Below, piece after piece: positions 13,935 through 43,723 of a DNA stretch of 64,000 nucleotides; the first letter of the stretch is position 1, and every line of letters starts with the position of its first letter. The notes under the pieces are model-generated. The model was not told the origin of the DNA. It was given only the letters and a program-made list of their open reading frames with translations, and searched no databases. A program made the translations under genes and the position numbers. This DNA comes from Gekko japonicus. Its lineage: Eukaryota. The DNA lies in NCBI RefSeq assembly GCF_001447785.1, contig NW_015160215.1, positions 20,201 to 84,200 on the forward strand. The letters are read 5' to 3'.

Positions 13935-14143
13935 CAGGGAGGGCCCCAGCTTATTTTGCACCCTAGGCGAGGATCCCTTCTGGCGCCCCGCCCCCCTGCG
14001 CCCACCATTTCCCAAAAATAAATGCATTTTAGGAAGAATGAAAAACACAAATAATTAAGAAACTCCCAGAGTACGGGCTGGGTGCAGTTTGGCGCCCCTA
14101 AGGGCCAGCCCGCTCTGATCGCCTAGTGAGTGAGCCGGCCCTG
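13935..14143. mobile_element. hAT MITE just upstream of the CpG island
   Basis: CAGGG...CCCTG termini; perfect 8-bp TSD ATTAGGAG (13927-13934, 14144-14151). Confidence 0.85.
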
Positions 14144-14773
14144 ATTAGGAGAAAGAAGACTGAAGTCACACATGCCATTTGACATGCAATTTCAGCCCTT
14201 CTCCCTTCGCTGGGAAGCACATGTCAAAAAGCAGTTTTTAAATACGTTTTTATCCTGTTTCTGAATCGATTGCTGGCTTTGCAGGGAAAGTTGATTTACA
14301 ACCGCCTTTCAACCTTCCAACGCTTTACAACACGCTGGTGATTTCGGCGGAAGTTTTATTGAAACCAGCCGCGAGATTGATGGTTATCATCGACGCGGAT
14401 CTCTCAATAACCGGGTCCGAGTGGGACACAAGTTGAGAGCGGGGCTCCCGGAGTCGGGGGGATGAGTACACACCTAGAGCCAGGGCGGTGGGCAAGGCAC
14501 GTGGTCCCCCCCCCCCGTGGTGTGAGCGACTTGGGTGAAGCTGTGTGGGTGGAAAGGGAGTCAGCGGCGCCGAGCCCCACATTTCTCCTCAAGGGGGGGG
14601 GGGAGAATGCTGCCCGCCTGCCTTCCCCTCTTCCCTCTCTTGGGGGACCCCAGGGAAAGGAGCCCCGCGCGGCGGCGCCGGTCCGCTCCCTCGCCTCCTT
14701 TCCCTCCCTCCATTGTGCAGCTGGCTACTTCAGCACTCCCACCTGCTGGCGGCGGCGAGGCGAAGCGAGCGAG

Positions 14774-14799
14774 CCCCCCCCCCCCCCCCCCCCCCCCCC
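14774..14799. repeat. C26 homopolymer
   Basis: 26 consecutive C. Confidence 0.95.
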
Positions 14800-14930
14800 A
14801 TTCACCCCTCTCAGCAGCACGCGTGTGTCCCCAGCTGAACCGGAGAGAGCCCCCTCCTCCTCCCTCCGGACTGGAGCCACCACCTCTCCCGTCCCTTCCC
14901 CGAACTAAGGCGGCTGTTGGCCGTATAAAG

Positions 14931-14963
14931 CGGCGGCGGCGGCGGCAGCAGCAGGAGCAGCAA
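14931..14963 (+). repeat. (CGG)5 followed by CAG-rich triplets
   Basis: CGGCGGCGGCGGCGGCAGCAGCAGGAGCAGCAA directly after the TATA-like box. Confidence 0.9.
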
Positions 14964-15100
14964 GCGACACCCGCGCCGCCAACGCCTCAGCCCCTTTCCC
15001 GTCGCGGCTGCCCTGAAGAGCCGCCACCGCCTTTCCCCAGGCGAGCGTGAGGCTTGGGGAATAGGAGGCGCCGCCGCCGTTGCCGCCGCCGCGGACTGCA

Positions 15101-15148
15101 ATGTGCCCCTCGCTGCTGTTAGTCCTGCCGCAGCAGCCGCAGCCCTGA
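15101..15148 (+). other. Candidate upstream ORF (MCPSLLLVLPQQPQP*) in the GRIP1b 5' UTR
   Basis: ATG at 15101, TGA at 15146-15148, 7 nt before the main ATG; translation not demonstrated. Confidence 0.5.
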
Positions 15149-15155
15149 AGGAGCC

Positions 15156-15210
15156 ATGCCGGGCTGGAAGAAGAACATCCCCGTCTGCCTGCAAGCGGAG
15201 CAGGAGCGAG
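15156..15210 (+). CDS. GRIP1: First coding exon of glutamate receptor-interacting protein 1, palmitoylated isoform GRIP1b (18 codons + 1 nt; phase-1 intron)
   Basis: GAGCCATG start; encodes MPGWKKNIPVCLQAEQER, matching my recollection of mammalian GRIP1b N-terminus MPGWKKNIPICLQAEEQER with the palmitoylated Cys11; GAG|GTGAGG donor at 15211; inside a CpG island. Confidence 0.88.
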
Positions 15211-18200
15211 GTGAGGGAGAGCGCGCGAGCCGGCGCCACCGGCTTTCCTGCTGCCCTCCTCCCGCGCCCTTCCCCCTCTCCCTCTCAGGTGCTCTCTGCT
15301 TCGCAAGGGAGCCCGCCCAGCCTGCCTCCCGCTCCCGGAGGCGGGAGGGGGTGCCTGGCAAAGGAAAGGGGGGAGTGTTTGCCGGGGAGAGGCACCTGAG
15401 GGAGGGGGAGGGGCGGCACGTCCTCCTGCCGCAAGTTAACTTTTCTTTGCCTGGGCGCCTTGCTTGGCTGCCTGGCTGCCTTCCCCTCCCTCTCTCCCTC
15501 CCTCCCTCCGGCCTGGCTTCTGTTTGCACTGCTGGTCGCCTCGGGATACAAAGAGACTCAGCGAAGTTTCATTCCATGCTCGTTTTTTTCTTTGAGGGGG
15601 GGCACGCTGGCTTGTTCCTTACAGGGGGAGGAATTCGCTTTGTAGAGGGACTCTGGGCGAGGAGAAAGTGTGGGTTTGGAGGAGGGAGAGGGCAGCTGGA
15701 GGTGGCGGCTTGGCTGATCTGCCCTTTGGCTGAGGGGAACCGGCAGCAACAGCGATGGTTGAGGATGTTCAGGCGATCAGGCATGTCCCACTCAGGGGCG
15801 AAGAGGATGGGGGGTTCGCGGGTGCTGTAGCGGCGCAGGACATCCCCTTCCTGCCATGCACATTCCTCTGGAGCGCAGCCCACGATCTCCGTATTCCCCC
15901 CCCCCCGCCAATTTACAGGGCGTCGTGTCAGGGCAGATCACACAGGAGGCAGGCAGCGTGCAGTGTTATCCCTCTTGGCATCCTGAGCATCTGGCTGTGG
16001 AAGAAGATGACAGTGGCACCCAACTAGGAAGGCTGTGAACTCCTGGGCTTGCTGGGTTTTCTGCATTCTTAGAGGATTTTCTCTCTTAAACTAAGTAAAT
16101 CATTGTAAAAACCGCAGACCAAGAAATCAGATAACCTAATTGTAGCTTTTGGAAGTTTCATCAGACATCTTGGTGAAACCATACAGTCTAGGGGAGTTCT
16201 AGGGGTAGAATATGTGATTGTCTGATATGAGGGACAGTTTTGTTGTTCGCTTTTAAAGAACAAGAATGTGTGGCACCTGTTTTGTAGCACTGCACAAAAC
16301 CCTTGTTGTCAAGCTCTCAGTCTTCCTGAACTTAGCTTGTTGCTCACTGTTTGTTGGACTCTTCAAAGGGTTTTGTTCTATGATTGCTAATACTTACAGT
16401 TGTACTTTGTATTGTGTTTGCCTTAAGTATTGTCAGAAATGGCAAAGGGCGCACACTTTTTCTCCCAAAGCCCTGACATGGTGGCCATTAATCCCTATTG
16501 ATGGCCAAAAAGTTCCTAGATTGTGTTTTATCACAACTGTTATTAATGAGAGTTTTCAAGTGCTAGACACAGCATTGAAAGCTCATCCTCAAGAGATCAG
16601 AATGATAAACAGCCTTGAATTTAAAAAATAGTCCCATAGTTTGTAAGGGCAATGATATCTTGAAATACTTTTGTAATTTTAGTGACATTGGAGAGGGGTG
16701 GAAAGAGGAACAACTTTTTTCAAATCCCACTTTTAAAAACAGCTTTCAAGAGGCATATGGGATTGGTATTTGGTAGCAATAAAAGAAGGTTTATATGTCA
16801 ACGTGGGATTGTTTGGTTTCCATTAAATCCTGTTACACTGGAGCTGATGTTTTCTTGTCTCATTTCAAAATCAACAAAGCTTTGGATGCATTGTGAATTC
16901 AGATTATAGCTGTGTAATGAATATAGAAGTGAGCTTTGACTGTCATTGGATTTTCTCTATCCTGATAGAGGCTGAACTGAGTGTAGGATGAGTTATGCCC
17001 AGGTTTTTAATACAGTACTGCCTAAAATTGCCTAAAGTTGCACACATTCCTCTAGGTAGGGATGATCTTTGGTTTGCTTGTCTTGTCTAATTGATTGTCA
17101 TGTTGGATATAGATGGGAGTATTAGAAACACTGACCACTTAGAAAATATTTAAATGAGGGGCTAGTTTCTCACATGTTCAAAGAAATAAATGTTTAGTTT
17201 TGATCACAAATAGACATGTTCCTAGCGACATTTTTTTCACTGATAAAGTTTATTGTAAATGGCAAAGACACCTAGGTACAAAAATTTTCTTTGGCTTTTT
17301 AAAGGTTAATTGAAATGTATGCAGCAGATATTTTGCATGAATTATCTCTCTCTTAGCACAGTAGTATAATAAACCATATCTAAAGGCAACATGCTCCTTT
17401 CTGACTTGAATACACCTTCATATTCTGGAAAAACAAAAATGGATAGATGGCTGTATTGTTACAAAGTAAGGTAACTCACTATTTGAATGCAGGAAAGATT
17501 CAGAATTATCTAATCACTGTATAGCAGAGACAGTGAAATCAGAATCATTTTTGTGCGTGAAAATCAGAGTCAAGAATGGTTATTGTGCTTTCTGCTTTAT
17601 CTTCTCTCTCTCTCACTCTCAGTCTGTGTCTCTTTGGTATGCCATGGAACAATTGCCTTTTCTTTGATGTTTTCTGCACCAGTAGAGATGCTGCTTTGTA
17701 AACAGTTCTCATGCTTATTTTATTTAATATGCATTTTCTGTTTATTTTCATAACAGTTCAACACAATTCATTTTTATAAATTATTATAACATTTTCCTTG
17801 TGCAAATAAAAAGCATTATGCATTTCTGAGGTAGAGTTCATTTTCTGTTACTCAAGCTCAGCTAATCAATTTAGCAAAATTTCAGTGCTTCAGATTCAAT
17901 TATCTCTCTTCCCTTTTGGTTATAAAAAAATATGAAGCAATCAAAATAAATAATAGGTATTGAATTGGAATATGAAGACTAGTCCAGATAAATCTTTTAA
18001 ACAAGCCAGGCCAGTCTTGTAATTAAATGAAGATGCATCTTTAGTGTTTAATATTGTGTTGACTTGGAAGGTGATTGCAAATATAGTTAAATTCTGATTC
18101 AAAGCCAGTTTGCTTATATCTCCCTCTGCTGTTAGAAGACAATATTTCCATCTTGAAGTTTATGTATAGAAATCAGGGCAATGTATTTTTTTTTTCTGTT

Positions 18201-33688: not shown

Positions 33689-34525
33689 TGTGGCTTGCTA
33701 GTAAACAGTTCACTCCCCCCCCTTTCAAGATTGGTGACTAATTAAGATGGCATGGGTTCACCATCATGAAGCCTAGGCAGATTCATTAAAATTTAAATAG
33801 TATTCTTCAATAAAGGAAAAAAGTAGATTGTATCAAAGGTTTTGGAACTCAGAATGCTGATGTATGTATGTGTGTCTGGAAAGGAATGTTGATTCAGTAA
33901 AAAGAGTTAGAAGTAAAGCAGACAGGTTTAATTTTCTGATTATGTTCACTAATCTTAGCCAAGTCACTAACTTAGGTAGGTCTTGAAGCTAAAACTGATA
34001 TAAGGGTGTATAAAATAAGTGTGTATACAATGTTGAAATACTATCATCTCAACCAAGTCTACAGCAGGGTAGGAGCAAGCAACCCTGGCAGAAGACGATT
34101 CCTGTAGTTGAGCCCCCTCCTTTCTTTATGCCTGTGGGTCAGGATTCACTCTTTCATTCCTTCCTCCCTCCCCCTTAAGTGGCGCTGCTCTCATGTTGCT
34201 CATCCTCCTCACTGCTTCCAGTCAGCCCTTTCTCATCTGGGGCAGCCGCTGTGGTGATGGGGTGGCAGACTAACAGTGGATGGTACCCTGGGGCAGCCAA
34301 AAGATCAGGTGTAGCAGCCTCCTTTTCCCATCTCAGCTGCTCAGTAACACCAGAACCCTTTCTCAGGGCTGCAGAGAGGTAACTCAGAACCCAGGGCAAC
34401 ACATAATCTTGGGGCTCTCTCAGCCATCAATAGGAACATGTAGAAACAACAGAGAGAAAGAATTTGTTTCATTGCAGTGGGAAGAATGTTTGAGTGTTTA
34501 TTCACAGATTAGAATTGTTGACTTG

Positions 34526-34639
34526 GACTTCCGGGGCGGGACTAAGGGAAATGGCTGCCTAAACCCTTGGCTCCGCCGAACCCGAAGCCCGCCACCCCCC
34601 TGAAATCGAACTTAGCAGCAACGAAAAAATCTTACATAC
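34526..34639 (+). promoter_or_regulatory. L1 5' UTR / putative internal promoter
   Basis: GACTTCCGG (ETS-like), GGGGCGGGAC (GC box), AAATGGCTGCC (YY1-like) within the first ~35 nt; CpG-rich. Confidence 0.6.
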
Positions 34640-35608
34640 ATGGAGAAAGAAGCACCGAAAACCGCACTACCCCTGGTGAAGAAACAGAAAAAAGACAAGA
34701 GCAGGTCAGAATCTCTGAAACCGATCAACACTCTGGGCCCCGAAGATCAACCTGTACTCAAAATGGCGACCGCCATTTCAGAAGCCGATAAAATCGCGCC
34801 CATAACGGCCGCAGATCTAAAGGAGGCATTATTGTCTATGGAACAAAACTTTTTCACTCATGTGAATTCCATGTTTAAACCTTTATATGATCGTGTGGAG
34901 ACCACTGAAAAAAACCTGACTAAGACCAATCATACTGCAGAAATGGCGATCCAAAATAGTATAGCTAACCAAAATAACATTCAGCAAATGCAGCAAGCTG
35001 AAGAGATTTTAGCAGAAAAAACAATGAAATTAGATCTGTCTCTACGTCAAAATAATTTAAAATTGAGAGGACTGGAAGAGAACATTGAAAAAGAAGGTGA
35101 TTTAGCGTTCCATCTGTCGACCTGGCTGGCGCAAGTCGTGGGTACTGAAAGTGACCAGTCTCCACTGATTACTAAAGCATTCAGACTGGGTCCCACGTCC
35201 CTGCTGAAATCGAGACCATCAAGAGACGTAATGATTACACTCATGGACACCAGATTTCGTAAAAGAATTTTAACTCATGCACGAAAGGAAGGTCATTTGA
35301 AATATCTGAACCAACGCATTGAAGTGTACCCGGATCTCCCCAGAGAAGCTCTGCAGAAACGGCGGGAACTGAAGACGATCACCACCACTCTACGCGAGGC
35401 TGACATTAAGTACACATGGCACACCCCGCTCGTTCTACAGTTCACTTTTAAAGGCAAGACACACAGAATCTCCGACAAAGATGAAGGCTTACAACTTCTA
35501 TCCCATCTCAATGTCTGCCCGTCTATGGAGTACACGAATCAAACCAACAAGAGAAGGCACTCCTCATCGTCGCCCGGGCTTTCGGATGCCGAAGACTCGG
35601 AAAACTGA
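34640..35608 (+). CDS. L1 ORF1p (322 aa; coiled coil, RRM, CTD)
   Basis: Open ORF; heptad-rich region followed by RQNNLKLRGLEE, AFRLG, RPSRDVMI, IEVYPDLPREALQKRRE motifs typical of L1 ORF1p. Confidence 0.93.
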   Translation: MEKEAPKTALPLVKKQKKDKSRSESLKPINTLGPEDQPVLKMATAISEADKIAPITAADLKEALLSMEQNFFTHVNSMFKPLYDRVETTEKNLTKTNHTAEMAIQNSIANQNNIQQMQQAEEILAEKTMKLDLSLRQNNLKLRGLEENIEKEGDLAFHLSTWLAQVVGTESDQSPLITKAFRLGPTSLLKSRPSRDVMITLMDTRFRKRILTHARKEGHLKYLNQRIEVYPDLPREALQKRRELKTITTTLREADIKYTWHTPLVLQFTFKGKTHRISDKDEGLQLLSHLNVCPSMEYTNQTNKRRHSSSSPGLSDAEDSEN

Positions 35609-36732
35609 CCACCTACAACATAGACTTTATCGAGTTCCGCTGATGCCTAACTGCCCAGCACGCCATAGGATATGGAGATCTGGCTACTTGCTAAGCAACA
35701 TTGCTGTCTACCATCGATTTCAGATTAAGCCAGTAACTCTGAAGCGGCAAAAAGGCTGTCGTTCCTTCACAAGTGCCTCACTGAAAGACGTCCTTACTGA
35801 TGCCCCAAGACTCCTATTTTACCCATCTAAATGATTATATTCTCAACTTTCTAATGTTAATGAAATGTTCCAGTTACTCCATGAATTACCAGTTTTTTAG
35901 TATTTTTAAAAGTTGCTGTTTTTACTACCTTTGAAATTATTTGTTCTGAGGGGGTTGGGGGGGGAGGGGGTAACCGTTTCCAATTGTATTAATTGTTATT
36001 TTTGTAGTCTTATCTCTGGATGAACGGCTGGGGAGGTTTCTTAGAAACCAAGGGCAGGGCGTTCCCCAGTCTTCCACCTTTGGACTCTAGAAGGTGGAAG
36101 ATCAGAGATAGACTATAATTGTTGTTGTTTTAGCTGTAAATAAGCATACGCTGTTAAAATCTTATCACCAAGTATTGCAACAAAGCAATCTTCATCTTCA
36201 ATTATACATATTTTGAACTCTTCTATATTGTGATATATATATACGCATTCTGTTCAAACTTGCAGTAAAAATAACAATCTTTTCTCAATCTAAATCAACA
36301 GTCAGATAGACTAAGAATTGTTTTTCCTAACAAATACAGACTCCAATAACTTACAGTTAAAAGGGAAAAAAAAAAGCGTACATCTTAGAAGTATTTTTTC
36401 GAATAACTACAGACTCCAAATAATAATCTTAATCTGATTAACTTGTTTTTTATTATTTCTTTTTTAATTTAAATACATATATACCACTGTTTTTATAATA
36501 CTAATCAATTAATAAGTTGATCTGATCATTCTATCTCCAGCAATTAACTATATATATTTGATTTTCTCCATTACCAAACATACCCTGTTAGATAACAGAT
36601 CTTCTGAACACCCATCTCTACTCGTATTGGTGAAGTCTTCCCAAGAGTCCTAACATCATCATCTTCTACAACCTTATTCAAGATTTATACGCCAACAGGT
36701 AGGATACTTACTTTGCAATAACCATTAAGATC

Positions 36733-37755
36733 ATGGCTGACTGTATTAAAGTAATAACAAGTAATGTAAAGGGATTGAACCACCCCATTAAGAAGCGCAG
36801 AGTCCTTACTGACTTGATGAAACTGAATCCTGATGTCATCCTCTTGCAGGAAACACACCTCAAAAAATCAAATAATCTGGTTTTTAAAAACCCCAAATTC
36901 CCGACACAATTCTTAGCCCCAGGCACCTCAAATTCACGAGGGGTGGCAATACTCCTCTCCCGTAACATACACTTCACGTTGGAACAAAGTAAGTCAGATC
37001 CTAATGGTAGATACCTTTTCATAAAAGGCATGCTAAACAATAATAAGCTGACCATTGCCACATTGTATGCTCCTAATGAAGGACAGCTCCAATTCATCGA
37101 ATCCACTCTTACCCTCCTCCAGAATTTCGCTGAAGGCGATATTGTGCTGGGAGGAGACTTCAATTACATTATAGATAAGTTCTTAGACAAATCCCACCAC
37201 ACCTCTCATCATCCTACACCTAAAAACAGACTTACCAAGTTAGATTCCATATTGAAAGCGCACAACCTCACCGACATTTGGAGATTGAAACACCCAGGTG
37301 TACACGACTATACTTACTTTTCAACAAGCCACACAGTCCACTCCAGAATAGATCTTATCTTACTATCTTCCTCTCTTGTATCACAAGTGGACAGTGTCAA
37401 CATTACACCTCACAGATGGTCAGATCATGATCTACTCATATGCAATTTAAAAAACCCATCCAAAAGAACGACAAACACACAATGGTCTTTGAATGTAAAT
37501 TTATTGAACAACCAACTATTCACAGAACACCTGGAAAATGAAATCAAAAATTATTTACAGATTAATGACAATCAGGAGACTTCGCCCTGCTCGGTCTGGG
37601 ATGCCCTAAAACCGGTGATCCGGGGCTCGATAATATCAAAGGCCTCACACCTGAAAAGAGAAAAAGAACAATTAAAGTCGGAAGTCATACAAAACATTGA
37701 ACTATTAGATAAAAAACACAAAAAAAAGGATCACCAATCATTAGGACTAAACTAG
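36733..37755 (+). CDS. L1 ORF2p N-terminal part (APE endonuclease), frameshifted at the A8 run 37720-37727
   Basis: NVKGLN, LQETH, GVAIL, YAPN, GGDFN, SRIDLIL, SDHD motifs. Confidence 0.93.
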   Translation: MADCIKVITSNVKGLNHPIKKRRVLTDLMKLNPDVILLQETHLKKSNNLVFKNPKFPTQFLAPGTSNSRGVAILLSRNIHFTLEQSKSDPNGRYLFIKGMLNNNKLTIATLYAPNEGQLQFIESTLTLLQNFAEGDIVLGGDFNYIIDKFLDKSHHTSHHPTPKNRLTKLDSILKAHNLTDIWRLKHPGVHDYTYFSTSHTVHSRIDLILLSSSLVSQVDSVNITPHRWSDHDLLICNLKNPSKRTTNTQWSLNVNLLNNQLFTEHLENEIKNYLQINDNQETSPCSVWDALKPVIRGSIISKASHLKREKEQLKSEVIQNIELLDKKHKKKDHQSLGLN

Positions 37756-40565
37756 AAGCTGAACGAAAGAAACTGGAAATATTAGAAACCTCCATGATCC
37801 AAAAACAACTGCTTTATGTTAAGCAGAAATATTGGGTTAAATCACCACGCAATCTAAAACTTCTTGCTCATAAAGTAAAAGAACAGGCCAGAAACAGACA
37901 CATCTCCGCAATTGCAACCAAACTAGGGAACATAGAAACCCAAACTGACAAGATTTTACAAAGATTTCATGAATATTATACAGAATTGTATTCTCAGACC
38001 CCAATAGACCAACCTACCTTCCAATCGGAATCAAATAAATTCCCGATACACACAAAACTATCAGAAGTAGACAAAAATTTCATGGAAGCTCCCATTACAG
38101 AACAAGAAATAACAGACACCATTAGGCTACTTAAAAATGGGAAAACTCCTGGACCGGACGGATTCCCATCGGAATTCTATAAAAAATTCAAAAGTCTCCT
38201 GACCAAACAATTGGCTAAAACGTTTAACCATATCCTGGACACCGGAGATATACCTACCTCCTGGAAATTTGCAAACACAGTAGTGATCCCGAAACCAGAT
38301 AGAAATCCAATGTCCACAACTTCATATCGCCCAATCTCCCTCCTCAACCAGGACCAGAAAATCTTTTCCTCGATATTGGCCAAAAGGATTAACACTTTCA
38401 TACCAAACTACATCCATCACGATCAAGCAGGATTTATACCTAACAGGGATCTTTCCGATAATACATTAAGAACACTACAACTAGCACAACATTGTCTAGA
38501 CTCCAAAATTGCAGCAGCGTTCCTCTCCCTTGATATCGAAAAAGCGTTTGATACGGTCTCTTTCAAATATCTATTTCACACTCTCCAAGAGATGAATTTT
38601 GGCCCCAAATTTATCAAAACCATTCAAAGTTTATATAAAAACCCAAACATGAAAATAAAGATAAATGGCTCTTTATCCAACCCTATAAAGCTGGAAAAGG
38701 GAACGAGACAGGGCTGCCCTCTGTCTCCCCTCCTTTTCGCCATAGCAATCGAGCCCTTGGCCCAAGCGATCCGAACCAATGAACACATTAAAGGTATATC
38801 AACTAGGCAAGTGGAACATAAACTGTCCCTCTTTGCAGATGACATGTTGTTGTACATAACAGATCCTGTAAATTCAATACCCCCGCTGAAATCAATGCTA
38901 AAATCCTTCAAAACAATATCTGGTCTTACAGTTAATGACTCAAAAACGCAAATATTTCCAATCTTACTATCCTCAGAAGTCAAAAATGAACTAACACAGA
39001 CTCACAACTTTGCTTTAATTACTGACTCTTTCAGGTACTTAGGCATAGACATCCCAACGAATCTCAACAAACTGTTGCCAAACAACTATCATAAAACCCA
39101 CAAACGAATCTTACAAGATATACAAAGCTGGGAAAAGCTTCATCTGCCTTGGTTAGATAGATTCCATTTAATCAAATCCTTCATATTACCGAAATTCCTG
39201 TTTCTATTTAGAATGTTGCCCATTACTATCCCAACTAAAGACCTAAACTCATGGCAAGCAACACTAAAGAAGTTTTTGTGGAACAAGAAGAAACCCCGCA
39301 TAGGACATAAAATTCTACGCCGAGCCAAAAACAGAGGAGGGTTTGGACTTCCAGATCTCCACATATATTATAAAGCAACTCTAGTAACAAATATAATTAA
39401 AATGCAAAGGACTCAAAACATTCCACCTTGGGTAAATCTGACGGCGGATTTATCTGGTACACCTAACATTGACATTCCAATATGGGGTAATGACACCAAG
39501 ATAAATACTCATCTCAAACAAAACAAATTCATAAATCCTTCCATGCATTACTGGAAAAAAATCAAACACAAACTCCTTCCGACAATATCTAGATTTACCA
39601 CACTTACCTCTCAACCTTGGTTTCATAATTTAATACCACGAGACTTAGCCTCATCTTGGAAGAAAGCTCACCTCTATAGATTTAGTGATATCCTAACCAA
39701 AGAAGGTCTCTACCCTAAAACATTACTAGAAGCCAAAATTAAACACAAAATCCCATGGTATACTTACCTTCAAATTCAGCATGCAACGACACAAGGCAAA
39801 TTTAGACAATCAATGAACCAACCACTCACAAAACTAGAAGTCATCATCAAACAATTTAATGGACAAAACAGAGGATTGATCTCCCACACATACAAAACGC
39901 TAATGGACATTTTTGATTCCACCACTCTCCCATATCAACGAGCATGGCAGACAGAATGCCTGACAAAATTAGATGACCGGGTCTGGAGCAAAATATGGAA
40001 CTCTTCCAACTCAGACTCCAAGTCATACTCAATAGATCTCCACCGATTAAAAATACACACAAAATGGTATCTTACCCCTCAAACCATATCAAAAATAACC
40101 AAACAATACTCACCATTATGCTGGAAGGGCTGTGGTCAAATAGGCTCCTTTGCCCATTGCTGGTGGCTTTGCAACGAACTCCGCCCATTCTGGTTAGAAG
40201 TCCTGGAAAAAATAAAACAAATCACGGACATAGAACTTTCCTACACTCCGGAACATTTAATGTTAGAGGTCTGGCCGGAAAAAATTGATCAGCACCACCA
40301 TAAAAGTATCCTAAAAACGATGCTCTATGCGGCAAGATTATCAATAGCCTCAAAATGGAAAAACCCTAAATCACCTACAAGTCAGGATTGGTTCCAAAAG
40401 CTCTGGGATCAGTACATAATGGAGAGCATAACTGGGAGATGCAATACAGCGAAAACAGGCCAGCCTGATCTGAAGTTTAGTGCAAAGTGGTTTCCTATAC
40501 TTACCTTTTTGGAAAAAGAACGAATTGTGCCACCGTCTTGGGAAGACTACACCAAATGGCTATAA
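37728..40565 (+). CDS. L1 ORF2p C-terminal part (Z region, reverse transcriptase, Cys-rich CCHC domain)
   Basis: Frame open from 37728 (GSPIIRTKLEAERKKLEILETSMIQK...); PGPDGF, YRPISLLN, DIEKAFD, GTRQGCPLSP, LFADD, YLGI, CWKGC...HCWWLC. Confidence 0.95.
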   Translation, partial: GSPIIRTKLEAERKKLEILETSMIQKQLLYVKQKYWVKSPRNLKLLAHKVKEQARNRHISAIATKLGNIETQTDKILQRFHEYYTELYSQTPIDQPTFQSESNKFPIHTKLSEVDKNFMEAPITEQEITDTIRLLKNGKTPGPDGFPSEFYKKFKSLLTKQLAKTFNHILDTGDIPTSWKFANTVVIPKPDRNPMSTTSYRPISLLNQDQKIFSSILAKRINTFIPNYIHHDQAGFIPNRDLSDNTLRTLQLAQHCLDSKIAAAFLSLDIEKAFDTVSFKYLFHTLQEMNFGPKFIKTIQSLYKNPNMKIKINGSLSNPIKLEKGTRQGCPLSPLLFAIAIEPLAQAIRTNEHIKGISTRQVEHKLSLFADDMLLYITDPVNSIPPLKSMLKSFKTISGLTVNDSKTQIFPILLSSEVKNELTQTHNFALITDSFRYLGIDIPTNLNKLLPNNYHKTHKRILQDIQSWEKLHLPWLDRFHLIKSFILPKFLFLFRMLPITIPTKDLNSWQATLKKFLWNKKKPRIGHKILRRAKNRGGFGLPDLHIYYKATLVTNIIKMQRTQNIPPWVNLTADLSGTPNIDIPIWGNDTKINTHLKQNKFINPSMHYWKKIKHKLLPTISRFTTLTSQPWFHNLIPRDLASSWKKAHLYRFSDILTKEGLYPKTLLEAKIKHKIPWYTYLQIQHATTQGKFRQSMNQPLTKLEVIIKQFNGQNRGLISHTYKTLMDIFDSTTLPYQRAWQTECLTKLDDRVWSKIWNSSNSDSKSYSIDLHRLKIHTKWYLTPQTISKITKQYSPLCWKGCGQIGSFAHCWWLCNELRPFWLEVLEKIKQITDIELSYTPEHLMLEVWPEKIDQHHHKSILKTMLYAARLSIASKWKNPKSPTSQDWFQKLWDQYIMESITGRCNTAKTGQPDLKFSAKWFPILTFLEKERIVPPSWEDYTKWL

Positions 40566-41008
40566 AGGTGAAGAACAGTAATCATCATAGTCAAATTATA
40601 AGAATATGACATATCATAGGTAAAATTATAGCCTAACAGATCAATTACTCCTACAGGCAAGAATGCGCTCTAACATCTACAAAGTCTTATTACTCTTTAT
40701 CTTATCATCTGTAAAGCTATAACTTACAACTTTTACTTACAGATAGTCACATATTAGAAGTCATAGATATGAAATTGTATTGATGTAAAAATTACACTAC
40801 TGCTCTTACTCTATATCTCATGTTAAACTTGAAGTGTATTTACATGCTATTATTATTTGTATGCAATCTTAATACTTCAATAAAAAATATAAATTGAAAA
40901 AAGAATTGTTGACTTGTAAATTAATGGTATTTACGCAGCACACGGTGAAAAAGCTGTTATGTGAAACGGGAGTATATGCAATTTCCGTAGTGTATGCGTA
41001 CATCTTTA

Positions 41009-41083
41009 TTACTTGTTGAAGAAGAACACTACTCACTGCAAAACTTGTTACTTGTTGAAGAAGAACACTACTCACTGCAAAAC
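41009..41083. repeat. Tandem duplication of a 36-bp unit (39-bp period)
   Basis: TTACTTGTTGAAGAAGAACACTACTCACTGCAAAAC at 41009-41044 and 41048-41083. Confidence 0.9.
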
Positions 41084-41177
41084 AACAGTCTAAATATATT
41101 TTCATAATACTACATCACGGTTGTTTTCATCATTGTTTGCATCAATAGGAACATAGCATATTTAAGTGCATGGAGCA

Positions 41178-41461
41178 GAAGAAGAAGAAGAGATTGGATT
41201 TATACCCTGCCCTTCACTACCCAAAGGTGTCTCAGAGCGGCTTACAAACTCCTTCCCCTTCCCCTCCCCACAACAGACACCCTGTGAGGTAGGTGGGGCT
41301 GAGAGAACTCTTGACAGAAACTGTTCTTTTTCAAGAACAGCTGTGCCAGAGTTATGGCTTGCCCAAGGTCATCCAGTCAGGTGCAAGTGGAGGAGTGGAG
41401 AATCAAACCTGGTTCTCCCAGATTAGAGTCCGCGCACTTAACCACTACACCAAACTGGCTC
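41178..41461 (-). mobile_element. Squam3-like tRNA-derived SINE
   Basis: (GAA)n tail on + strand; head reads AGCCAGTTTGGTGTAGTGGTTAAGTGCGCGGACTCTAATCTGGGAGAACCAGGTTTGATTC on minus; close to 49401-49675. Confidence 0.88.
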
Positions 41462-43723
41462 TCGTGTTTGACATAAGCAGTGACATAAGTTATTATATAG
41501 TTTAGCATGTAGTGTTTAATGATGACATACTCATTAATAACGATAAATGCTGATTCAGAAAGGCAAATGAGTCTCTTGTCTGATTGGTAAGCCAGTGCCC
41601 TGACAGTCAAAAGTTAATGGTGGGACAGGCACAACCTTGTTTGTCCAGTAACTTTAGCCAATACATTGGGGGACTCCTTTGTCCCTCTCTGCAGCCCTGC
41701 CCTGCTTCTGGTCACTTCGGACACACATCTAATACTTGTTCAAACAACACATGGGATATCTGACATACTGTTCTTTACTGTTAAAAAGCACCTAGGCATG
41801 AGGGGAATCCCTGATTAAAAATCACCCCAAGCTGTTGTTGGGATCAGTAGCCTTTTGATATTAACGCTGGATCATCCAGTCACAACATGTAGTTTAACCG
41901 CTCATGAGACAACTGCACTAGACCTAGTGTCAGTGGTCTGCTTTAGGGACTCTGTTCAGTATGCCTGGGTTTTGCAGGTGCACCGTGATGCTTACCACTG
42001 ATGCTGAGCATAGGAACTATGTTCCTTACTTCCCCCTTCAATGAGGAAGAGCAGAACAAAGGTCTCAACTCACATATATGCCAACTTTATGCAAGGTGGG
42101 AACTAAGCTAAGCGTTTGCTTTTCTTGATCTTTCCCATAGAAGGGGGGAGAAAGAGGGTTTATTCTAAAAGGCTATCTATAAGACTTCATTTACCAAAAT
42201 AGTATCACTCCAATAAGCCAAAGAAAGCAAATCTTCCACATTGCCTACAGATGACAAAAGGAACAATTCTTCCATTCTTAGGTGTACCTTTTTGTATTCT
42301 TTTTGAGAAGGAGGGCCCATTTGTTTGGACAAAATGTATCAATCTGGCACTTTAGGTTTCATTTTCCATGAATCCGTCTAATTAATTTCTGAATTCAGCT
42401 GTATTTGAAGGACTGTAGCAGAAAATAAAGATGTAATGGTTCATTGATGCCCCTATTAATTAAGTATATGTTTTACTAAATCAATTAAAAACCCATGCAG
42501 CAGAATAATATAGAAGCATCACAGATGTGCAAAAACTTTTCCAAGCCACATGTTGAGGGATAGTTTTAACTCCTTCACAGTTTACTGAAGTGCAAACAGA
42601 CATGTCAGGCTCAAGAGGGGTCCCTGGAGGAGAGCATGGCTGTCTGTTTGACAACTTCTGTTCCTTCTCAACTCATGGAGGGCAGATAAATGTCAGTCAG
42701 AATACGTTGTGCTGCCTCCCATGTTGTTGCACCTTTGCCTTTACCTGACAGAGTGTAGCTTTACAAGACACTCAGATATGGTTTGTTCTGTTTTTGTTTG
42801 TTTCTTTAAAACAAAGAAATATTTTTGTAATGTAGTGTCTAAGTAATTGCATTAAACACTTGCTTTGTAACCAACAAAATTTCCAGGAAACTCTGTTAAA
42901 AAGAAATTTCTTATCAAATTCAGCTGAAGGTTCATTTGCCACCGAATTATTCATTCCTATGATTTTTCTCTCCTCTGCAAACAAAACTGAAAAAGGAATT
43001 TCCACCAATTTTATTTTGTTGGAATCTGACTATAGCTGGGATTCCGTACTCCAGTCTGCTTTCCACCAAACTGTTTCTTGAGTCTGGACAGAGAGCTTAT
43101 TGTTTCTCAGTGGTAATTATGAACATGCTATAAGTTATTGTTAGAACTGTTAATGTATGGACTGTGTAGCCTGGGGCAAGATACTTTTAATCTCAGTTCC
43201 TTCTTTCCAAAAGGGAAATAGTAAGTTTTTGAAAGGCAAATGAAGGAAAGTCTGTAAAGCACAGCAAAAGATTGTGTGCACAACCAATAGTATTCTTCAT
43301 CTGTTTTTGTACATAATGTATAGCTTGAGCCTTAGCAACTCCTGACAACATGAATTCTTCTCATCCTGAGATGTGACACTTTATAGAATATGGACTCTTG
43401 CATGGAAGAAATGACATGGAGGCAAAAAGTAAGGAACCAGTAAGTGAACATTAGAAGAATTGGGGGGGGGGGCACATTGCTCTTACATGGGGGACTTACT
43501 GCCTTCATTCTTTAGTAACAAATTTATTCTAATTTTGTTCCTGAGTTACCGTAGTTGCTTGTTCAAGACCACTACAGGAACAAAACAAAAATAGAGTAGC
43601 ATCTTGTTTTACTTATACATACTACAACAGACTCACAGCTCTTCTGTTCCTTAAAGATGCAAATATTTTACAGGAAACTTTTTAAAAAGGTATTTTCATA
43701 TTTTTTTAGTAGATGATAGTGAA

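What the first reader, a model, noticed from the sequence alone, without database searches (positions are those of the whole stretch)
34511..40916. Full-length, nearly intact L1 in sense orientation inside the GRIP1b intron
Seen: perfect 15-bp TSD, CpG-rich 5' UTR, intact 322-aa ORF1, and an ORF2 that becomes a single 1277-aa frame if one A is added to the A8 run at 37720-37727 (CAC AAA AAA AAA GGA TCA = HKKKGS). The catalytic APE, FADD and CCHC motifs are present. Inference: a very recent insertion, possibly polymorphic or even an active source copy if the indel is a consensus error. Being in sense orientation, its A-rich body and polyA signal could reduce or truncate GRIP1b transcripts.
Basis: partly seen in the sequence, partly recalled or inferred. 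Interest (0 to 1): 0.7.

Follow-up and report, generated by a model that had tools for sequence, protein, structure and literature searches.

The report
Young broken L1 in gecko GRIP1b
A recently inserted, full-length LINE-1 jumping gene sits in the huge first intron of a lizard (likely gecko) brain-scaffold gene and is missing from two other animals; as assembled, its reverse-transcriptase gene is broken by a one-base frameshift, so it is likely a dead copy of an active family, which is ordinary for lizards.

Summary
The anatomy is confirmed: 15-bp TSD, 6,376-bp L1, 322-aa ORF1, ORF2 split by a -1 frameshift at A8 (37720-37727), sense to GRIP1b. Three points change. (1) No A9 copy was found: 22 of 26 paralogues spanning the site read in frame, all with C or T in the codon after the lysine run (mostly HKKTGS; closest copy HKKNGS). 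(2) The -1 state is not only an assembly slip: an independent contig spans the site gap-free in the same frame, while one DNA run also holds contigs with one extra base. (3) The insertion looks polymorphic: in two DNA samples the only contig over the unique flank runs into the right flank without the L1. ORF2 was under purifying selection until recently (pN/pS 0.07 past the break), and no frameshift-stimulating structure follows the run. So it is most likely a recently disabled copy, not a source element. Caveat: young L1 interiors in this assembly are mosaics, so the break may belong to a sibling. The L1 lies 19 kb into a ~399-kb GRIP1b-specific intron and upstream of the GRIP1a first exon; any effect on transcripts is untested. 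Ordinary: a new member of the short-5'UTR, long-IGR vertebrate L1 type.

The parts
15156..15210 (+). GRIP1b-specific first coding exon (MPGWKKNIPVCLQAEQER, then GT donor); fixes host orientation
   Evidence: isoform name from a recalled motif. GRIP1a first exon at C505:318943 and PDZ1 exons at C505:434404 and 435566, all + strand
34425..34439 (+). Left copy of the 15-bp direct repeat flanking the older host repeat (likely its TSD)
34440..34510 (+). Left part of an older ~310-bp dispersed repeat into which the L1 inserted
34511..34525 (+). 5' target-site duplication (TT|AGAA-type target; the last G may belong to the element, as siblings start GGACTTCC)
34526..34639 (+). 114-bp CpG-rich 5' UTR (internal promoter inferred)
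   Evidence: same 5' start in sibling copies
34640..35608 (+). Intact ORF1, 322 aa; weak match to human L1 ORF1p RRM/CTD
   Evidence: E 0.0018; 6 homologues, all named Gekko kuhli, 41-52% identity
35609..36732 (+). 1,124-bp inter-ORF region with a G-rich run at 35950-35970
36733..37755 (+). ORF2 upstream frame: APE endonuclease and start of the following region, ending at a stop after 340 aa
37720..37727 (+). A8 run carrying the -1 frameshift (A AAA AAG in the upstream frame)
37713..40565 (+). ORF2 downstream frame, 950 aa stop to stop: RT (FADD) and C-terminal CCHC region
   Evidence: human L1 ORF2p E 2e-130
40566..40901 (+). 336-bp 3' UTR with AATAAA at 40879 and a 5-6-nt A tail
40902..40916 (+). 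3' target-site duplication
40917..41139 (+). Right part of the older host repeat (with a 39-bp tandem duplication)
41140..41154 (+). Right copy of the host repeat's 15-bp direct repeat

Best explanation
This is a full-length, very young L1 that is absent from two other individuals and lies in sense inside an older repeat in the GRIP1b-specific first intron; its assembled ORF2 carries a -1 frameshift at an A run, so it is likely a recently disabled, non-autonomous copy of an active family. Inferred mechanism: an in-frame sibling was copied by target-primed reverse transcription at a TT|AGAA site (15-bp TSD). One base was lost at the slippery A run during or shortly before that copying. The copy would make ORF1p and a 340-aa endonuclease-only product but no reverse transcriptase, so it would move only by rare help in trans. 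Any effect on the host would be limited to GRIP1b and is probably small.
For: TSD and single-copy 15-mer in 11 of 11 host-repeat paralogues. Empty allele: in X3 and X4 a single contig (depth 81.9 and 61.9) covers flank position 34409, and a contig of the same depth joins 34499 to 40902 with 63 and 47 letters on the short side; 34250-34437 matched only itself among 40 scored of 223 candidates. -1 frame in an independent sample: X1 record 4, 37608-38176, 569 of 569 letters, 0 gaps, 2 substitutions. Extra-base contigs exist: X3 shows one extra base at the run in 187.1 of 346.6 depth units. 22 of 26 paralogues read in frame; 2 others (L041, L053) carry a +1 shift at the same run, so the run is a slippage hotspot. 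Purifying selection on the window lineage past the break: 25 synonymous vs 6 non-synonymous changes, pN/pS 0.07, P 5e-12. No significant structure 3' of the run: z +0.46, -0.99, -1.57. Human L1s are poorly rescued in trans (PMC5605252, passages).
Against: The interior of this copy is not locus-anchored. L003 is identical to the window over 1,912 bp including the run but about 3% diverged on either side (P 6e-26), and L034 has three identical blocks of 411-507 bp. This points to shared assembly paths among young copies, so the break could come from a sibling (C2312 or C10612, whose interiors are not assembled). X1's allele ends the run in C while the window has A, so the two -1 alleles may be independent events or one may hold an error. 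X3 and X4 are two samples of one study and may be another population; the 11 bases 34500-34510 of the empty allele are not resolved by the tool. Raw reads (about 0.8x DNA by my arithmetic) listed no indel at the run and no junction either way. Cis preference is from mammals, not geckos.
Confidence: 0.62

Rival explanations
1. The true GRIP1 copy is intact and potentially active; the assembler borrowed the frameshifted interior from a near-identical sibling.
For: Mosaic blocks in sibling copies; gapped assembly of 191,500 contigs; window identical to C2312 over 3,097 bp and to C10612 over 1,229 bp; the run is about 3.2 kb from both unique flanks; extra-base alleles exist in X3; strong purifying selection.
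Against: X1 and X2 contigs match the window across the block boundaries, so the window haplotype is real at the 500-700-bp scale; the -1 frame also occurs in an unrelated sample; no in-frame copy above 95% identity spans the run among the 33 matches.
Confidence: 0.22
2. A frameshifted young lineage keeps spreading, either mobilised in trans by in-frame siblings or rescued by -1 slippage at A AAA AAG, which would give HKKKGS.
For: The -1 state appears in the assembly and in X1's contig. The heptamer is in the right frame for -1 slippage (sequence; slippery-site rule recalled). At least three full-length copies have identical 5' ends. X3 lacks this insertion yet has 159.5 depth units without a called extra base.
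Against: X1's allele ends the run in C and is not a slippery heptamer; no stimulatory structure; pN/pS shows no relaxed period; the X3 contigs may stop inside the run, so that figure is unresolved; the second assembly copy (L003) is probably the same assembly path, not an independent locus.
Confidence: 0.13
3. The whole insertion is an assembly artefact.
For: No L1-flank junction contig or read was listed (tables were cut); the C10612 copy looks mis-filled.
Against: A perfect TSD made from a 15-mer that is single in all 11 paralogues examined, an endonuclease-type target, exact family 5' and 3' ends and no N in the element.
Confidence: 0.03

Closest known systems
Vertebrate L1 with short 5' UTR and long IGR (lizard clade 2, frog and fish L1; Boissinot and Sookdeo 2016, PMC5381506, section 7 and passages seen)
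   Same: Short 5' UTR, ORF1 about 970 bp, IGR with a G-rich stretch, ORF2 about 3.8 kb, AATAAA plus A tail, A-rich sense strand (35.6% A).
   Different: IGR 1,124 bp is longer than Anolis clade 2 (270-384) and just above the frog maximum (1,032) in that table; 5' UTR 114 bp vs 216-238; 3' UTR 336 vs 96-154. No tree against Anolis families was built.
Human L1 ORF2p and ORF1p (PDB 9k6g, 8sxt, 2ykp)
   Same: Both ORF2 pieces are collinear with human ORF2p (residues 8-328 and 340-1232); ORF1 weakly matches the RRM/CTD.
   Different: Different 5' UTR and IGR architecture; short A tails across the family; frameshift between the two matched parts.
Polymorphic full-length L1 insertions of Anolis carolinensis (PMC5389967, passages seen)
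   Same: 1,089 of 2,508 polymorphic L1 insertions were full length and most LINE polymorphisms were rare, so a polymorphic full-length lizard L1 is expected.
   Different: Other lizard lineage; ORF integrity was not among the passages read.
Intronic L1 transcriptional interference in mammals (PMC3192792; search listing and start of abstract only)
   Same: Full-length intronic L1 with its own poly(A) signal.
   Different: No transcript evidence here; the host intron is about 399 kb and specific to one isoform.

Membership tests
L1 clade non-LTR retrotransposon | ORF2 with N-terminal APE endonuclease, RT and C-terminal cysteine-rich region, closest to L1 ORF2p | tested here: met
   human L1 ORF2p E 2e-130 and 6e-46; R2 proteins only E 5e-28
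L1 clade non-LTR retrotransposon | ORF1 of the L1 type (coiled coil, RRM, CTD) | tested here: inconclusive
   Top PDB hits are human L1 ORF1p but at E 0.0018; no Pfam family at E 0.001; Transposase_22 in 1 of 7 aligned members at E 0.97
L1 clade non-LTR retrotransposon | Variable TSD at a T|A-rich endonuclease site, poly(A) signal and tail, 5'-truncated siblings | tested here: met
Short-5'UTR, long-IGR vertebrate L1 (lizard clade 2 type) | Short 5' UTR and IGR of several hundred bp with G-rich stretch | tested here: met
   114 bp and 1,124 bp against table 2 of PMC5381506
Short-5'UTR, long-IGR vertebrate L1 (lizard clade 2 type) | Phylogenetic placement with Anolis clade 2 families | not tested
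   No Anolis consensus sequences were at hand
Retrotransposition-competent (source) L1 | Both ORFs intact | tested here: not met
   ORF2 -1 frameshift in the assembly and in X1 record 4; locus-level state not anchored
Retrotransposition-competent (source) L1 | Expression from this locus or daughter copies with 3' transductions | tested here: inconclusive
   Near-identical sequence in likely-RNA contigs, locus not assignable
Programmed -1 ribosomal frameshift site | In-frame X XXY YYZ heptamer | tested here: met
   A AAA AAG in the upstream frame of the window allele; not in X1's allele
Programmed -1 ribosomal frameshift site | Downstream stimulatory structure and conservation across the family | tested here: not met
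   z +0.46 to -1.57 (pseudoknots not modelled); 22 of 26 paralogues in frame without it

The most novel reading that the evidence does not exclude
The youngest gecko L1 lineage carries an ORF2 frameshift yet still makes new full-length insertions, by trans-mobilisation from in-frame siblings or by -1 slippage at A AAA AAG: a vertebrate L1 that escapes cis preference or uses recoding inside ORF2.
Probability: 0.13. Interest if true: 0.6.

Novelty: new member of a known kind. Interest (0 to 1): 0.27.

Why it matters
As it stands it is a good marker: a segregating 6.4-kb L1 in an intron used only by the palmitoylated GRIP1b isoform, which would allow an allele-specific test of L1 interference in a reptile, and a near-source sequence for a non-mammalian, long-IGR L1 whose ORF2 translation is unresolved (PMC5381506, passages). 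If the frameshifted allele were shared by several loci, it would test whether cis preference holds outside mammals. It also shows that ORF integrity of young L1s cannot be read from this assembly alone.

Tried and rejected
A9 as the family state: 0 of 26 paralogues; one X3 contig of depth about 37 may be A9 or A8C and cannot be told apart. L003 as an independent second frameshifted locus: rejected as likely shared assembly path. Joints 34510-40902 in X2 and X3 (only 12 letters fit both sides) as empty alleles: set aside, since host-repeat paralogues give the same join; only the contig covering 34409 was counted. Raw reads: swamped by a SINE at 41108-41600, no indel row at the run, no junction listed, no strand bias; uninformative. 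No RNA holder is on record; X1 and X2 are taken as likely RNA because of a canonical splice joint. Protein search for a full-length in-frame ORF2 with residues 1-140 of the downstream frame: no hit. Stimulatory RNA structure: none. A 20-mer repeated in C2312 is a repeat paralogue, not a TSD. Earlier findings: nothing returned. Literature searches listed no paper on this element or on a frameshifted amplifying lizard L1; they cover only the held library and, apart from four papers, were seen as listings. No supplements were read. X1 record 5 (9 differences in 607, clustered at one end) was left out of the 0.2% divergence figure; with it the figure is 0.39%.

Full report
Observation. The 15-mer AGAATTGTTGACTTG occurs only at 34511 and 40902. 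Between the copies lie 6,376 bp: a 114-bp 5' UTR, a 322-aa ORF1 (34640-35608), a 1,124-bp inter-ORF region, ORF2 from 36733 to 40565 (3,833 nt, one short of 1,277 codons), a 336-bp 3' UTR with AATAAA at 40879, and a 5-6-nt A tail. The upstream ORF2 frame (340 aa) matches human L1 ORF2p residues 8-328, the downstream frame residues 340-1232; Pfam finds the endonuclease and RT. ORF1 matches human ORF1p weakly (E 0.0018), and all 6 protein homologues found are named Gekko kuhli, so the host is probably a gecko. The layout fits the short-5'UTR, long-IGR type of lizard clade 2, frog and fish (PMC5381506 section 7).

Host gene. The GRIP1b first exon (motif recalled) starts at 15156 on the + strand. 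The GRIP1a first exon is at C505:318943 and the first PDZ exons at C505:434404 and 435566, with further PDZ exons at 445168 and 489735. The window is C505:20201-84200. So the L1 is in sense, 19.3 kb into an intron of about 399 kb, and about 258 kb upstream of the GRIP1a first coding exon; only GRIP1b, the palmitoylated form (PMC6365469 passages), would read through it. AATAAA is rarer in the L1 sense strand (0.63/kb) than in the intron flanks (0.93/kb). No data here show truncation.

The insertion is real and looks polymorphic. The target is an older repeat with its own 15-bp flanking repeat (34425 and 41140). In 11 of 11 paralogues examined the 15-mer or a close variant is single and continues into the right-flank sequence. 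The flank 34250-34437 matched only itself among 40 scored of 223 candidates. In DNA samples X3 and X4 one contig covers 34409, and a contig of the same depth (81.9 and 61.9) joins 34499 to 40902; I read these as one contig and an empty allele. Limits: one study, 11 bases unresolved, population unknown. Polymorphic full-length L1s are common in Anolis (1,089 of 2,508; PMC5389967 passages).

Age. Seven X1 contigs differ from the window at 7 of 3,496 bases (16 of 4,103 with an eighth, mosaic-looking record). The assembly holds three copies with an identical first 275 bp and three with an identical last 342 bp, the window included.

The frameshift. Of 30 loci taken from 33 matches, 26 span the run: 22 read in frame (mostly HKKTGS; the 94%-identical L040 reads HKKNGS), 2 carry an extra base that shifts the frame (L041, L053), and 2 are -1 (the window and L038 = L003). 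None has A9. Seven of the 22 are 67-73% identical and were judged by translation through the motif. X1 record 4 spans 37608-38176 with no gap and two substitutions, one turning the last A of the run into C: the same -1 frame in an unrelated sample. X3 has one extra base in 187.1 of 346.6 depth units; the rest may stop inside the run. X4 contigs across the site look like the older type. So the run is a slippage hotspot, the -1 state exists in nature, and extra-base (in-frame) siblings likely exist. Whether the window and X1 alleles share one origin cannot be told.

How long broken. Changes on the window lineage (against L034 and L005) are 25 synonymous to 6 non-synonymous downstream of the run (pN/pS 0.07) and 11 to 9 upstream (0.23). 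ORF2 was therefore selected until very recently. The window allele puts A AAA AAG in the -1 slippage frame, but no significant structure follows, X1's allele lacks the heptamer, and the family does not keep it. Human defective L1s are poorly rescued in trans (PMC5605252 passages).

Assembly caveat. L003 is identical to the window over 1,912 bp but about 3% diverged outside; L034 has several identical blocks. C2312 stops at an N gap just before the run. C10612 reads as L1 1-1229, about 4,020 bp of the unique C5009 flank, then L1 5504-end, with five clustered differences found in no other fetched locus, which looks like gap filling. X1 and X2 contigs cross these block boundaries matching the window, so the window is the likelier donor haplotype, but the base 3.2 kb from either flank is not tied to this locus. 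L034 is itself damaged (ORF1 frameshift, 43-bp duplication near the ORF2 end). Unbroken ORF2 frames of 1,278-1,284 codons occur in older relatives L006, L012 and L014.

Verdict. Shown: anatomy, orientation, real TSD, youth, -1 frame in assembly and in one independent contig, recent purifying selection. Inferred: polymorphism from two samples, non-autonomy of this locus, mechanism of the lesion. Untested: effect on GRIP1b. It is a new member of a known kind. Best explanation 0.62, intact copy hidden by assembly 0.22, spreading frameshifted lineage 0.13, artefact 0.03. Interest 0.27.

Noticed in passing
L031 (G000:C10612:82757-88878, - strand) and L033 (C5009:322235-327130): A TSD-flanked element made of L1 bases 1-1229, about 4,020 bp identical to the unique flank of a 5'-truncated L1 at C5009, and the L1 3' end; 3-bp microhomology at the join, no N. 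Total length is close to a full L1 and five clustered differences match no other fetched locus, so a gap-fill artefact is likelier than a template-switch chimera.
   Followed up: partly
window 37651-40113, - strand: Likely-RNA runs X1 and X2 (two studies) show a CT..AC joint, i.e. an antisense GT-AG splice removing 2,463 bases. The window has both sites (donor GTGAGT, acceptor TTTTCAG). Nearby variants suggest an older L005-like copy; locus unknown.
   Followed up: partly
window 34425-34525 and 40902-41154: The L1 is nested in a ~310-bp dispersed repeat with variable 5' starts, a shared 3' end and its own 15-bp flanking repeat; probably a 5'-truncated retroposon. Not named.
   Followed up: partly
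L002/L034 (C13966) and L003 (C1712): Sibling copies are patchworks of blocks identical to the window and blocks 3-5% diverged: assembly collapse or real recombination between subfamilies.
   Followed up: partly
L073 (C12321) and L074 (C5661): Two truncated L1 3' ends on different contigs share the same downstream flank: a duplicated segment, uncollapsed haplotype or 3' transduction.
   Followed up: no
window 41177-41463: Very high-copy SINE-like repeat (depth about 40,000 in X19 against 1-6 over the L1).
   Followed up: no
window 14001-16000: GC-rich island (60-65% GC, C26 run at 14774) around the GRIP1b first exon.
   Followed up: no
window 35373-35834: A 153-codon open frame overlaps the ORF1 end and runs into the IGR; a similar 173-codon frame is open in L034.
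   Followed up: no
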